Shown here piece after piece: positions 6,034 through 7,733 of a stretch of 64,000 nucleotides of DNA. Position numbers and translations under genes: made by a program. The notes below the pieces were generated by a model. That model did no database searches. It was given only the letters and a program-made list of their open reading frames with translations, and had not been told where the DNA came from. The stretch is taken from NCBI GenBank assembly GCA_965230995.1, contig OZ246398.1:656213-720212 (forward strand), written 5' to 3'. Positions within the stretch are counted from its first letter, which is position 1, and each line of letters opens with the position of its first letter. Origin of the DNA: an uncultured Candidatus Saccharibacteria bacterium. GTDB lineage: Bacteria > Patescibacteriota > Minisyncoccia > Phycocordibacterales > G965230995.

Positions 6034-6067
6034 TGTATTAGAAAAGGGCGATACGGTAATCGCCCCT

Positions 6068-6301
6068 TCACTTCTTCACCCCCTTTTGTTCGTTGTCAAA
6101 GAAAGTACCCGGAACAACTGGACAGCCATCAGCAAAAACCGGAATGACCTCATCCCAATAGATAGGCGGAAACAAGCCGTCATCTTTTTGGGCCTTGAGA
6201 ATCACCCAATCACTCCATCTGAAATCATTGCTGATGTTCGGGACAGGCACAAGTGTGTGGATCTCCCTAATCGTAAGGAACTGTTCGTTCAAGGTTATCA
6301 C
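6068..6301 (-). CDS. hypothetical small protein (about 74-77 aa) in GC-rich island A
   Basis: ORF with GTG start, or a TTG at 6292 with a GGGGG Shine-Dalgarno 10 nt upstream. Followed by hairpin GGGCGAT-acggta-ATCGCCC plus T-run at 6044..6066. No recognisable domain. Confidence 0.45.
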   Translation of the reverse strand: MITLNEQFLTIREIHTLVPVPNISNDFRWSDWVILKAQKDDGLFPPIYWDEVIPVFADGCPVVPGTFFDNEQKGVKK

Positions 6302-6403
6302 CCCCTTTCGTCTGTAAGGATATCAGATTGATATTCATTTTCAATATAAATACAATAAAATGGCTAGAAATAATGATTAAATTATTAAATATGGAATAAA
6401 ATA

Positions 6404-6440
6404 TTTGACATATATTCATATATTATGTTATTATATGTAA
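6404..6440 (+). promoter_or_regulatory. sigma70-like promoter (TTGACA-17-TTATTA) driving the island A secreted-protein gene, followed by about 120-nt leader
   Basis: TTGACAtatattcatatattatgTTATTA. The long structured 5'UTR includes the hairpin AAGACG-ctaacc-CGTCTT. Confidence 0.5.
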
Positions 6441-6559
6441 TGAAGAAGACGCTAACCCGTCTTTTAATTTTGGACAGAACCTTAACAACGGAGGTCATAG
6501 AGACCTACACCCGTGAGAAGTTCCTGACACGAACCAAACCAACAGAGAAAGGTTCAGTA

Positions 6560-7645
6560 ATGAAAAACTGGATCATGTGCGTCGTGATGATGATGCTGGG
6601 CGCGATGCTCGGTATGAACGCGTTCGGTGCCTCGTCGGTCGAGGTAAATGCCTCGTACAACAAGTACGGCAACATGGCGATTCCCAACTACTACCAGTGT
6701 GTCGGACACTTCAACATCGATACCAGCGGGCAACTGCAGGTAACGGGCATCGAGTTCACTTTCCCCAAGCAGTTCACCAACATCGTCTATGATGTCGTCG
6801 TCGACATCTGGGACATGTGGGGGTGGCATGGTGGTGTCGAGCTCAAGCTCGTCGGCAACAAGGCGGTGTTCGATCAGGAGAGCCTGTTCGTAGAGGACGG
6901 ATATCGCCCGATCGACGTATACGTTTACGTGCGATTCAGAGAAACTAACAACCCGAAGCTTCTCAAGAAGGACTTCGTCATCTCACTCACGAAAGTGAGC
7001 GGTATCGACTGGGAGGAAAAGGGCAAGGAGTTCGCGAAGAGAGTCTCGGTCAAGTCCCTGCAGAAGATTGCGCTCCGCAACTCTCTGCTCCGGATTTACG
7101 ACATGAACCCCTACGACTACAACCCCGGACTCTCGGGTGGACAACCGCTGTTCGGCTTCTACTTGTATGCCTACGGCGACAATGGGGCCACGCAAGTGAA
7201 GAAGCTGAGCGTACGTATCATTCACTCCGAAGGGGTTAAGGTGGACAACCTCTCCCTTTGCGACGGGAGCGGTCGACGTCTCACCTTCGAGCCGGTCTCG
7301 ATTGGGAAGGACAATATCGCCACGTTCTACATCGGCCAACGTGGTGACAGCCGTATGCTCAATGTGTGGGACTACAAGGCGATCTACGTCCTTGGTGAGG
7401 TTAGCGGGAATTTGAGCAGTAACGACTTCGTTTTGCTCGAGGTCCCGCAGGACGAAACCAAGTCGACTGTTCGCGACAGCTTCGAGCGCGTCGCGAAAAA
7501 GGGTCAAATCGTCTGGTCCGATGTTACGGAGAACATCTACCAGTTTGACAGGGATCGGCGCGACTGGTACAACCAACACAATGTCGACGTGAGCGATTAC
7601 GCCAGCATCATCCTGACGGAGAACAGCTGGTGGTGGGGATACTAG
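6560..7645 (+). CDS. secreted hypothetical protein (about 361 aa, Sec signal peptide) in GC-rich island A
   Basis: Internal ATG at 6560 preceded by AGAAAGG. N-terminus MKNWIMCVVMMMLGAMLGMNAFGA is a signal peptide. GC3-rich codon usage. Upstream in-frame extension from 6425 is judged 5'UTR. Function unknown. Confidence 0.6.
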   Translation: MKNWIMCVVMMMLGAMLGMNAFGASSVEVNASYNKYGNMAIPNYYQCVGHFNIDTSGQLQVTGIEFTFPKQFTNIVYDVVVDIWDMWGWHGGVELKLVGNKAVFDQESLFVEDGYRPIDVYVYVRFRETNNPKLLKKDFVISLTKVSGIDWEEKGKEFAKRVSVKSLQKIALRNSLLRIYDMNPYDYNPGLSGGQPLFGFYLYAYGDNGATQVKKLSVRIIHSEGVKVDNLSLCDGSGRRLTFEPVSIGKDNIATFYIGQRGDSRMLNVWDYKAIYVLGEVSGNLSSNDFVLLEVPQDETKSTVRDSFERVAKKGQIVWSDVTENIYQFDRDRRDWYNQHNVDVSDYASIILTENSWWWGY

Positions 7646-7733
7646 TAGCTTCGCGGGAATAATCCCGCACAAGGGCGTTAGCAAAACAATCTGCTTGGAA
7701 AACAGAAGCTGGCGCCCTTTAAACTTGCCAAAA

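What the first reader, a model, noticed from the sequence alone, without database searches (positions are those of the whole stretch)
6038..7730. GC-rich island A: a divergent small-protein / secreted-protein gene pair with foreign composition
A 1.7-kb block at about 55% GC sits in an intergenic slot of a roughly 33% GC housekeeping neighbourhood. It carries a roughly 75-aa cytoplasmic ORF (minus) and a 361-aa Sec-secreted protein (plus) that ends in a Trp-rich tail (...NSWWWGY). The two are transcribed divergently from an AT-rich 260-bp core containing a near-consensus TTGACA-17-TTATTA promoter and a roughly 120-nt structured leader. Each gene has its own hairpin terminator. Neither protein matches a family I recognise. 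A small-cytoplasmic plus larger-secreted pairing is consistent with an exported effector and its cognate immunity or chaperone partner, or with a horizontally acquired surface or toxin module. The island is one of five similar inserts in the window.
Basis: partly seen in the sequence, partly recalled or inferred. Interest (0 to 1): 0.8.

Follow-up and report, generated by a model that had tools for sequence, protein, structure and literature searches.

The report
Hypervariable GC3-rich secreted-protein locus
A strongly promoted gene for an exported, adhesin-like protein and its small divergent partner fill a fixed slot in a small AT-rich bacterial genome; relatives carry very different genes in the same slot, and all use GC-rich codons that the rest of the genome avoids.

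Summary
The 361-aa ORF (6560-7645, +) is 54% GC. Its GC3 is 0.78, against 0.28±0.03 in 40 host genes, and its tetranucleotide correlation to the window is r=-0.20 (median 0.90). The promoter, the 77-aa divergent ORF and both terminators are present. No family matches either protein.

It is not a recent foreign insertion. No related genome examined has an empty site. All four (flanking exonuclease about 92-99% identical where full-length) carry a GC-rich gene with a hydrophobic signal-like N-terminus. These genes are either 25-30% identical (family A) or undetectably related (family B, which adds an 83-95-aa membrane protein). The promoter, the 5' hairpin and the 3' double hairpin are about 80% conserved around the variable coding sequences.

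Only synonymous positions are anomalous. GC1, GC2 and amino-acid composition are host-like, and no donor homolog exists among 1.84 billion representatives.

The structure model is weak (pLDDT 57). It shows two beta-sandwich domains resembling Gram-positive adhesins, pilins and cohesins.

My best reading is a resident, rapidly diversifying surface or exoprotein locus. The cause of its codon bias is unknown. An effector-immunity pair is unlikely.

The parts
6040..6066 (-). Intrinsic terminator of the small gene: hairpin GGGCGAT-N6-ATCGCCC followed by TTTTC on the minus strand.
   Evidence: Read from the sequence. It lies 2 nt after the stop codon of the small ORF.
6068..6301 (-). Small cytoplasmic protein gene. 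It is 77 aa from the GTG, or 74 aa from a TTG preceded by AAGGGGGTG. It evolves fast and is conserved in position and orientation in L014 and L015.
   Evidence: ORF. GC3 is 0.55. It has no hydrophobic N-terminus. Positional counterparts of 70 and 77 aa are 22-27% identical and share QF-T, W and P-V-G motifs. No homologs were found in the databases. The AF2 model is uninformative, with pLDDT 38.
6302..6404 (.). AT-rich divergent intergenic core. It contains a weak candidate promoter for the small gene on the minus strand (TTGAAA-16-TATCCT, 6344-6317).
   Evidence: It is partly conserved with L014 and L015 (alignment A3).
6405..6434 (+). Near-consensus sigma-70-type promoter TTGACA-18-TATTAT with an extended -10 TG.
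   Evidence: 11 of 12 matches. TTGAC is invariant in all four loci, and the full TTGACA is kept in three of them (L016 has TTGACT). Window 6405-6495 is 83.5% identical to L015.
6444..6471 (+). 5'-proximal stem-loop (8 bp) followed by a U-run. It starts about 9 nt after the -10 box. I infer a 5'-terminal mRNA stabiliser or an attenuator.
   Evidence: Folds. A hairpin plus U-run occurs at the same place in L014, L015 and L016, and L016 uses a different stem sequence.
6490..6559 (+). Remainder of the leader. It holds an orphan GGAGG, which aligns with the ribosome-binding site of the 83-aa membrane-protein gene in L015, and a probable relic of that gene's 3' end (...YT...KPTEK...). The weak RBS of the sec gene follows.
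   Evidence: Alignment A3. A local alignment to the 3' ends of the L014 and L015 TM genes was reached by 7 and 3 of 500 shuffles. This is tentative.
6560..7645 (+). 361-aa exported protein, family A. It has a signal peptide of about 23 aa, two predicted beta-sandwich domains (residues about 45-295) and a low-confidence Trp-rich C-terminal tail. GC3 is 0.78.
   Evidence: The only homologs are P0009 and P0010, both in the same slot of related genomes.
7653..7730 (+). Conserved 3' element: two hairpins (7653-7668 and 7671-7719) followed by the highly conserved TTTAAACTTGCC. It is the terminator of the sec gene. In L012 it is repeated on both sides of the family-A gene, so it may also be a recombination joint.
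   Evidence: Fold z=-2.85. RNAalifold on 6 copies gives 25 pairs, 6 with compensatory changes. Alignment A2. Second copy in L012 at 1482-1577.

Best explanation
Island A is a resident, lineage-specific, hypervariable expression locus. It is not a recently inserted foreign block.

Shown:
- A conserved regulatory frame surrounds the coding sequence. It consists of a near-consensus promoter, a 5'-proximal hairpin, a ribosome-binding region and a 3' double-hairpin terminator.
- This frame drives a protein with a signal-like N-terminus that is modelled, at low confidence, as two beta-sandwich domains. A fast-evolving 74-77-aa cytoplasmic protein is read divergently from the same AT-rich core.
- In related strains the same frame holds coding sequences that are 25-30% identical, or unrelated by sequence. 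One strain appears to carry two in tandem.
- Family B has an extra small membrane protein. A relic of its gene may survive in this window's leader.

Inferred:
- The exported protein is a cell-surface or extracellular binding protein of the adhesin, pilin or cohesin type. It is under diversifying or strongly relaxed selection.
- Such selection is typical of molecules exposed to partner cells or phages in a small-genome, probably symbiotic, bacterium.
- Variants are exchanged or lost by homologous recombination through the conserved leader and 3' element.

Unresolved:
- The GC richness comes from a force acting on synonymous sites inside this lineage. It could be selection on codon or mRNA properties, or GC-biased gene conversion tied to frequent recombination. 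It does not come from donor composition.
- The role of the small protein is unknown. It may be a regulator or a partner specific to each variant.
For: 1. The slot is always occupied. L012, L014, L015 and L016 all carry a GC-rich (50-57% GC, GC3 0.55-0.78) gene with a hydrophobic signal-like N-terminus next to the DUF378 gene, the exonuclease gene or both.
2. The flanks are conserved and the contents are not.
   - Exonuclease amino-acid identity is 92%, with dS of about 1.3.
   - The sec proteins are 25-30% identical or unrelated (BLASTP; hhalign probability 0.4%).
3. For L014 against L015, flank dN is 0.005-0.011 and dS 0.23-0.27. Inside the locus:
   - sec: dN 0.134, dS 0.62
   - small gene: dN 0.39, dS 1.8
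   - TM gene: dN 0.43, dS 0.97.
4. The non-coding frame is conserved.
   - Promoter and leader are 83.5% identical, and the 3' element 78-81%.
   - The 3' hairpins show compensatory changes.
   - The 5' hairpin is kept with a different stem sequence in L016.
5. L012 has a second 3' element, the last codons of another gene and its own promoter upstream of its family-A gene.
6. The anomaly is confined to synonymous sites.
   - GC1 is 0.514 and GC2 0.337, within about 1 SD of the host. GC3 is 15 SD above it.
   - GARP/FYMINK is 19/32% against 21/33% in the host.
7. No homologs occur outside the slot, and none in phage, plasmid or viral collections.
Against: - No anchoring motif was seen: no LPXTG, no lipobox and no C-terminal transmembrane segment.
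- Only five related loci exist, and all are metagenomic fragments.
- The tandem arrangement in L012 rests on a contig end.
- Exchange by recombination is inferred from the pattern, not observed.
- Nothing explains the GC3 shift mechanistically. If GC-biased conversion were strong, GC1 and GC2 of such a fast-evolving protein should also have risen, and they have not.
- Expression and localisation are untested.
Confidence: 0.5

Rival explanations
1. Classical horizontally acquired island: a gene pair imported from a GC-rich donor (bacterium, phage or plasmid) and inserted between the DUF378 and exonuclease genes.
For: - Nucleotide composition is extremely atypical: GC3 0.78, tetranucleotide r -0.20.
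- The unit is self-contained, with its own promoter, ORF and terminator, like a phage moron.
- A tRNA-Asn gene lies 1 kb away. In L014 and L019 a serine-recombinase and restriction-modification element is integrated at that tRNA.
- One other islet (48466-48882) has a GC1/GC2/GC3 pattern compatible with a donor of about 55% GC.
Against: - No empty site was found in any relative.
- The native regulatory frame is conserved across relatives at dS of about 1.3.
- GC1, GC2 and amino-acid composition are host-like. This is the opposite of the pattern expected for an ameliorating import, where third positions should ameliorate first (own knowledge: Lawrence and Ochman model).
- No homolog was found in any other context among 1.84 billion representatives, phages, plasmids or viral contigs.
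- No flanking repeats beyond an AT-rich 14-mer that is likely chance.
Confidence: 0.12
2. Secreted toxin or effector with a cognate cytoplasmic immunity protein or chaperone (polymorphic toxin logic). The two genes would co-diversify because of specific binding.
For: - Both genes evolve very fast.
- The small-protein type matches the sec type in the three genomes that have both.
- A pairing of a small cytoplasmic protein with a larger exported one is present.
Against: - No toxin, immunity or secretion-system domain was found in Pfam, NCBIfam or PADLOC.
- The predicted fold is a tandem beta-sandwich.
- Divergence covers the whole protein, not just a C-terminal module.
- The small gene is upstream and divergent, not downstream and co-transcribed.
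- L016 has a family-A sec gene without any small ORF.
- A protein exported by Sec does not need cytoplasmic immunity in the producing cell (own knowledge).
Confidence: 0.1
3. Expression site of a programmed antigenic-variation system, like Borrelia vlsE. The high GC content would serve gene conversion from silent cassettes located elsewhere in the genome.
For: - Borrelia vls cassettes are a documented case of about 49% GC in a 28.6% GC genome, with extreme divergence between strains (PMC11499132).
- This locus is likewise hypervariable, GC-rich, encodes an exported protein and has raised dS.
Against: - Neither the window nor the related loci contain a paralog or partial copy of the sec gene.
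- GC skew is about 0.04 and there are no G-runs, whereas vls has a skew of 0.52.
- Variation spans the whole gene and includes non-homologous replacements.
- Three assemblies of this strain are 100% identical across the locus.
- Only 64 kb of a genome of at least 742 kb could be inspected.
Confidence: 0.06

Closest known systems
Replacement-type flexible (hypervariable) genomic islands that encode exposed cell-surface structures (metagenomic islands; own knowledge of the concept)
   Same: The flanks and position are conserved. The contents are highly divergent or non-homologous between close relatives. The products are exported. Different variants coexist in the same metagenome (L012 with L019; L014 with L015). 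Composition is atypical.
   Different: This locus is a single gene of about 1 kb inside a conserved promoter and terminator frame, not a multi-gene glycosylation or O-antigen cluster. Its composition is shifted upward in GC and only at synonymous sites. The protein family is an orphan.
Borrelia vls antigenic-variation locus (PMC11499132)
   Same: It is a GC-rich (about 50%) surface-protein locus in an AT-rich genome. The composition is kept across strains despite strong sequence divergence, which implies a force that maintains it.
   Different: Here no silent cassettes are seen, there is no GC skew or G-clustering, the predicted protein is beta-sandwich rather than alpha-helical, and it is not a lipoprotein.
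Phage morons (own knowledge)
   Same: Each is a self-contained unit of promoter, ORF and terminator. Its base composition differs from the neighbouring genes, and it sits between two unrelated genes.
   Different: This unit lies among housekeeping genes, not in a prophage. It is present in all relatives. It matches no phage sequence or structure.
[not shown]
   Same: The fold class is tandem Ig-like or beta-sandwich, and the protein carries an N-terminal signal peptide.

Membership tests
Horizontally acquired genomic island | Base composition and codon usage are atypical for the host. | tested here: met
   GC3 is 0.78 against 0.28±0.03 in the host. Tetranucleotide r is -0.20 against a median of 0.90.
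Horizontally acquired genomic island | Presence/absence polymorphism: an empty site in close relatives. | tested here: not met
   L012, L014, L015 and L016 all have the slot occupied by a GC-rich sec gene.
Horizontally acquired genomic island | Homologs in a plausible donor lineage or on a mobile element. | tested here: not met
   The only homologs are P0009 and P0010, both in the same slot. Phage, plasmid and viral collections gave none.
Horizontally acquired genomic island | Amino-acid composition and GC1/GC2 consistent with the donor GC content implied by GC3. | tested here: not met
   GC1 is 0.514 and GC2 0.337, within about 1 SD of the host. GARP/FYMINK is 19/32% against 21/33% in the host.
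Horizontally acquired genomic island | Flanking direct repeats, att sites or mobility genes. | tested here: not met
   Only an AT-rich 14-mer pair was found. There is no integrase inside the block. A serine-recombinase element sits at the nearby tRNA-Asn in L014 and L019, but outside the pair.
Polymorphic toxin-immunity module | A recognisable toxin domain or a secretion-system-specific N-terminal domain. | tested here: not met
   No Pfam, NCBIfam or PADLOC hit. The model is a tandem beta-sandwich.
Polymorphic toxin-immunity module | Immunity gene immediately downstream, co-oriented and always present. | tested here: not met
   The small gene is upstream and divergent. It is absent from L016.
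Replacement-type hypervariable surface-protein locus | Conserved flanks with divergent or non-homologous content at the same position. | tested here: met
Replacement-type hypervariable surface-protein locus | The product is exported or surface-exposed. | tested here: inconclusive
   All five sec proteins have a hydrophobic N-terminal segment (Kyte-Doolittle score at least 2.5) and AXA-like cleavage sites by inspection. No dedicated signal-peptide predictor and no experiment were available.
Replacement-type hypervariable surface-protein locus | Excess divergence relative to the flanks. | tested here: met
   For L014 against L015, dN is 27-80 times and dS 2-7 times the flank values.
Replacement-type hypervariable surface-protein locus | Several variants coexist within one population. 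| tested here: inconclusive
   Two variants occur in each of two metagenomes: L014 and L015 in ERZ27247358, and L012 and L019 in Ga0172380. Whether they belong to one population is unknown.
vls-like antigenic variation system | High GC content in an AT-rich genome. | tested here: met
   The reference values come from PMC11499132.
vls-like antigenic variation system | Strong GC skew and G-runs on the coding strand. | tested here: not met
   GC skew is 0.04-0.05 across 6501-7500. Third positions are C 0.46 and G 0.32.
vls-like antigenic variation system | An array of silent cassettes homologous to the expressed gene. | tested here: not met
   tblastn finds no second copy in the 64-kb window. The rest of the genome (at least 742 kb) could not be searched.
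Integron gene cassette | An attC site with RYYYAAC and GTTRRRY cores, a promoterless cassette and a nearby IntI integrase. | tested here: not met
   The 3' element is an imperfect palindrome, but its GTTAGCA/TGCTAAC does not fit the core consensus (by inspection). The cassettes have their own promoters. No tyrosine integrase was seen.

The most novel reading that the evidence does not exclude
This small AT-rich genome may maintain a distinct class of genes with GC-rich synonymous codons: six in 64 kb, each a self-contained unit, all orphans. Their codon usage would be kept GC3-rich by a lineage-internal force while their proteins stay host-like in composition and evolve very fast. One possibility is codon-gated expression, in which the genes are translated efficiently only when particular tRNAs or tRNA modifications are available, for example on partner contact or phage infection. 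Another is extreme GC-biased gene conversion at recombination hot spots that hold variable genes. Island A would be the flagship case: a swappable cassette locus inside a fixed promoter and terminator frame.
Probability: 0.2. Interest if true: 0.8.

Novelty: new variant of a known kind. Interest (0 to 1): 0.55.

Why it matters
If this reading is correct, the locus marks the most rapidly changing exposed protein of an uncultured, small-genome bacterium. That makes it a natural candidate for what determines partner-cell or phage specificity.

The compositional pattern is the more general point. GC-rich islands in AT-rich genomes are routinely called horizontal transfers. Here the usual tests (empty site, donor homologs, amino-acid composition, native regulatory frame) all argue against import. 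The shift is confined to synonymous sites.

A force that holds GC3 near 0.78 in a genome at 0.28, across strains diverged to dS above 1, would bear on two questions. The first is how far codon-level selection or biased gene conversion can go in bacteria. The second is how reliable composition-based calls of horizontal transfer are.

Tried and rejected
- **Structured RNA rather than a gene.** The only Rfam hit at gathering threshold in the window is a group I intron. At E<=1 the other hits all lie outside the island. The GC3>GC1>GC2 periodicity, the signal peptide and homologs with in-frame indels show it is coding.
- **Assembly chimera.** Rejected, because identical sequence occurs in independent assemblies and the architecture recurs in JGI and ENA metagenomes.
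- **Shared mobile-element ends among the five islets.** The leader and the 3' element occur only at this locus in the window. The islet proteins are unrelated to each other.
- **Terminal repeats of the block.** Only short matches that are likely chance were found.
- **Related genomes in the GTDB representatives.** The exonuclease query returned only hits of about 30% identity in unrelated taxa, which were uninformative.
- **Homology between family A and family B.** BLASTP and hhalign were both negative.
- **Structure of the small protein.** The single-sequence model had pLDDT 38 and is unusable.
- **AFDB fold search.** The library was unavailable. BFVD gave nothing significant.
- **Strain-level comparison.** L018, L020, L017 and L001 proved to be the same strain at 100% identity, so they gave no polymorphism data.
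- **Literature.** Searches for GC-rich hypervariable genes in CPR, Patescibacteria or Saccharibacteria, and for the run accessions, found nothing relevant.
- **Integron attC reading of the 3' element.** Rejected on core motifs and on the cassettes having their own promoters.
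Full report
**Observation**

The window averages 37.1% GC. It carries housekeeping genes of a small genome: the F-ATPase operon, enolase, RNA polymerase subunits and aminoacyl-tRNA synthetases. The same proteins occur on an NCBI contig of 742,714 bp.

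Between a DUF378 gene (5738-5986, +) and an RNase T/ExoX-like exonuclease gene (7734-8453, -) lie two ORFs:
- a 77-aa ORF on the minus strand (6068-6301)
- a 361-aa ORF on the plus strand (6560-7645)

The 361-aa CDS is 54.4% GC. The small ORF is 46.6%, the AT-rich core between them 31.4%, and the whole block 49.5%.

The CDS is the most atypical stretch of the window. Its tetranucleotide correlation to the window is r=-0.20, against a median of 0.90.

- a TTGACA-18-TATTAT promoter with an extended -10 TG, 11 of 12 matches
- a hairpin terminator for the small gene
- a double hairpin after the sec gene, z=-2.85

Neither protein matches Pfam, PHROGs, NCBIfam, PADLOC or PDB sequences. The block is not an assembly artefact, because identical sequence occurs in separate Logan assemblies.

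**It is coding, and only synonymous sites are odd**

The table compares codon-position GC for the sec gene with 40 host genes.

| Position | sec gene | Host genes (mean±SD) |
|---|---|---|
| GC1 | 0.514 | 0.474±0.040 |
| GC2 | 0.337 | 0.330±0.033 |
| GC3 | 0.782 | 0.283±0.032 (maximum 0.343) |

The third position is therefore 15 SD out, while the first two are within about 1 SD.

Amino-acid composition is host-like. Ala is 3.9%, Lys 6.1% and Asn 6.6%. GARP/FYMINK is 19/32%, against 21/33% in the host.

The gene uses the codons the host avoids: CTC/CTG, GCG/GCC, ATC, AAG, GAG, TTC and TAC.

From general knowledge, a gene from a donor with GC3 near 0.78 should also have much higher GC1 and GC2 and an Ala/Arg/Gly/Pro-rich protein. 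An import undergoing amelioration should lose its GC3 signal first. This gene shows the opposite pattern.

**Related loci**

The GTDB-representative scan with the exonuclease as query gave only distant, uninformative hits. The metagenome scan, the look-up of the exonuclease and DUF378 90%-identity clusters, and the sec-family hit P0009 yielded five informative loci.

| Locus | Arrangement |
|---|---|
| L015 | exonuclease, sec (348 aa), TM protein (83 aa), small protein (77 aa, divergent), DUF378 |
| L014, L019 | the same, with sec 341 aa, TM 95 aa, small 70 aa |
| L016 | DUF378, then sec (P0009, 395 aa as called; 380 aa from the MKSW start), no small ORF |
| L012 | sec (P0010), then exonuclease |

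No relative has an empty site. Every sec gene is GC-rich (50-57% GC, GC3 0.55-0.78) next to flanking genes with GC3 of 0.24-0.33. Every sec protein has a strongly hydrophobic N-terminus.

The window protein groups with P0009 and P0010 as family A, at 25-30% identity (BLASTP E=2e-19). These three are the only members among 1.84 billion representative proteins. The word-indexed search of 5.8 billion clusters added none.

The L014 and L015 proteins form family B. They show no similarity to family A by BLASTP or by profile-profile comparison.

The small proteins are only 22-27% identical between the window and L014/L015, but they share motifs and position.

**Rates of change**

| Comparison | Gene | dN | dS |
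|---|---|---|---|
| Window vs L014/L015 | exonuclease (92% aa identity) | 0.05 | 1.3 |
| L014 vs L015 | exonuclease | 0.005 | 0.27 |
| L014 vs L015 | DUF378 | 0.011 | 0.23 |
| L014 vs L015 | sec | 0.134 | 0.62 |
| L014 vs L015 | small | 0.39 | 1.8 |
| L014 vs L015 | TM | 0.43 | 0.97 |

Both non-synonymous and synonymous divergence are locally raised. This fits import of alleles from more distant strains or a locally raised mutation or conversion rate. It does not fit ordinary vertical evolution under constraint.

**A conserved regulatory frame around variable coding sequence**

With flank dS of about 1.3, neutral DNA should be close to saturation. Three non-coding parts are nevertheless conserved:
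- Window 6405-6495 (promoter, 5' hairpin, ribosome-binding region) is 83.5% identical to L015.
- The roughly 85-nt 3' element is 78-81% identical to L012, L014 and L015, and 76% to L016. This holds for both family A and family B genes.
- The 3' element folds as two hairpins with 25 consensus pairs, 6 of them with compensatory changes. It is followed by the highly conserved TTTAAACTTGCC.

All four leaders have a 7-9-bp hairpin plus a U-run starting about 9 nt after the -10 box. L016 achieves this with a different stem sequence. I infer that this is a 5'-terminal stabiliser or an attenuator.

Conservation in the leader stops at the start codon of the L015 TM gene. In the window the corresponding GGAGG is orphaned. 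The following 60 nt resemble the 3' end of the TM gene (KPTEK). That alignment score was reached by 3-7 of 500 shuffles, so the relic is tentative.

In L012 the family-A gene is preceded by three things: the last codons of another gene (...E*), a second copy of the 3' element, and its own TTGACT-17-CATAAT promoter. This suggests two cassettes in tandem in that strain.

The simplest reading is a fixed expression frame. Within it, coding sequences are exchanged, duplicated or lost by recombination through the conserved non-coding parts, and they diverge very fast in between.

**What the protein looks like**

AlphaFold2 on the 3-sequence alignment gave a low-confidence model (pLDDT 57.5, pTM 0.49):
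- an N-terminal helix, taken to be the signal peptide
- an all-beta region spanning residues about 45-295, with block pLDDT of 52-86
- a disordered C-terminal 65 residues

BFVD gave nothing significant. The small protein could not be modelled (pLDDT 38).

**Interpretation**

Effector-immunity is unlikely for four reasons:
- there is no toxin domain
- the small gene has the wrong orientation
- divergence covers the whole protein
- L016 lacks the small gene

The best-supported account is a resident hypervariable locus for an exported binding protein. It is analogous to replacement-type flexible islands that encode exposed structures.

The closest compositional analogue is the Borrelia vls locus, at about 49% GC in a 28.6% GC genome (PMC11499132). 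This locus differs in two ways. It has no GC skew (0.04 against 0.52 in vls). It also has no silent copies in the 64 kb visible.

The cause of the GC3 shift is unresolved. Synonymous-site selection on mRNA stability or codon-dependent translation fits the host-like GC1 and GC2 best. GC-biased conversion fits the raised dS and the evidence of exchange.

**Wider pattern**

Four other single-ORF units in the window have GC3 of 0.64-0.73, host-like GARP/FYMINK values and no family assignment. Promoter-like sites, terminator-like sites or both lie on the coding strand. They are unrelated to island A and to each other. The phenomenon is therefore a property of the genome, not of this slot alone.

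**Verdict**

The locus is a new variant of a known kind: a hypervariable surface-protein locus with an unexplained compositional inversion confined to synonymous sites. Interest is 0.55.

Noticed in passing
window 4733-5113 (-), intron 4779-5071: A tRNA-Asn(GUU) gene is interrupted in its anticodon loop by a group I intron (Rfam RF00028, 65 bits). ARAGORN reports no tRNA in the window. The exons were read by eye: TCCGCGATAGCTCAGCTGGTAGAGCGGTCGCCTGT | TAAGCGATTGGTCGTAGGTTCGAGCCCTACTCGCGGAGCCA. L014 and L019 have an intact, intron-less tRNA-Asn(GTT) at the equivalent position, so the intron is polymorphic.
   Followed up: partly
window 5107-5400 (-): A free-standing 97-aa GIY-YIG ORF lies immediately upstream of the intron-bearing tRNA. 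It is probably a homing endonuclease associated with the intron. It appears to be absent from L014, where the corresponding interval is 111 nt instead of 276 nt.
   Followed up: partly
window 4500-4700 (-): A GC-rich segment of about 190 nt lies just downstream of the tRNA. It has a 13-bp terminal stem and folds very stably (-72.7 kcal/mol, z=-5.26). It contains GAGAGGAAGGUCUGGGC, which resembles the CR-I motif of RNase P RNA. Its 3' end repeats the tRNA 3' end (CCCTACTCGCGGAGCC). Rfam gives no hit at E<=10. It may be an unannotated small RNA or an att-site remnant.
   Followed up: partly
window 18012-18383 (+), 42063-42431 (-), 48466-48882 (-), 57158-57523 (+): Four more single-ORF units have GC3 of 0.64-0.73 and host-like amino-acid composition. 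Promoter-like sites, terminator-like sites or both lie on the coding strand. They match no Pfam, NCBIfam or PADLOC family, apart from weak sub-threshold hits (DUF5904, PycTM) for the 138-aa hydrophobic, probably membrane protein at 48466-48882. They are unrelated to each other.
   Followed up: partly
L014 4525-11773; L019 1-9486: In two related genomes a large serine recombinase gene, a DpnII-type restriction-modification cluster and several orphan ORFs are integrated at the 3' end of the tRNA-Asn next to the DUF378 gene. This element is absent from the window strain.
   Followed up: no
window 5530-5676 (+): A 48-aa ORF that looks by eye like a two-transmembrane-segment protein lies upstream of the DUF378 gene. 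It is conserved, by eye about 80% identical, in L019 (9798-9944), so it is probably a real small membrane-protein gene.
   Followed up: no
L007 7300-8494: In a relative whose exonuclease is 81% identical, the gene order differs. The RibD_C gene lies directly upstream of the exonuclease gene. Downstream there is a small ORF, by eye about 44 aa and membrane-like, instead of the sec locus. The sec locus therefore travels with the DUF378 gene rather than with the exonuclease gene.
   Followed up: partly
window 52825-53068 (+): A weak T-box leader match (23.8 bits, E=0.32, below the gathering threshold) lies just upstream of the threonyl-tRNA synthetase gene (53126-54883). This position makes sense for a divergent T-box riboswitch.
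   Followed up: no
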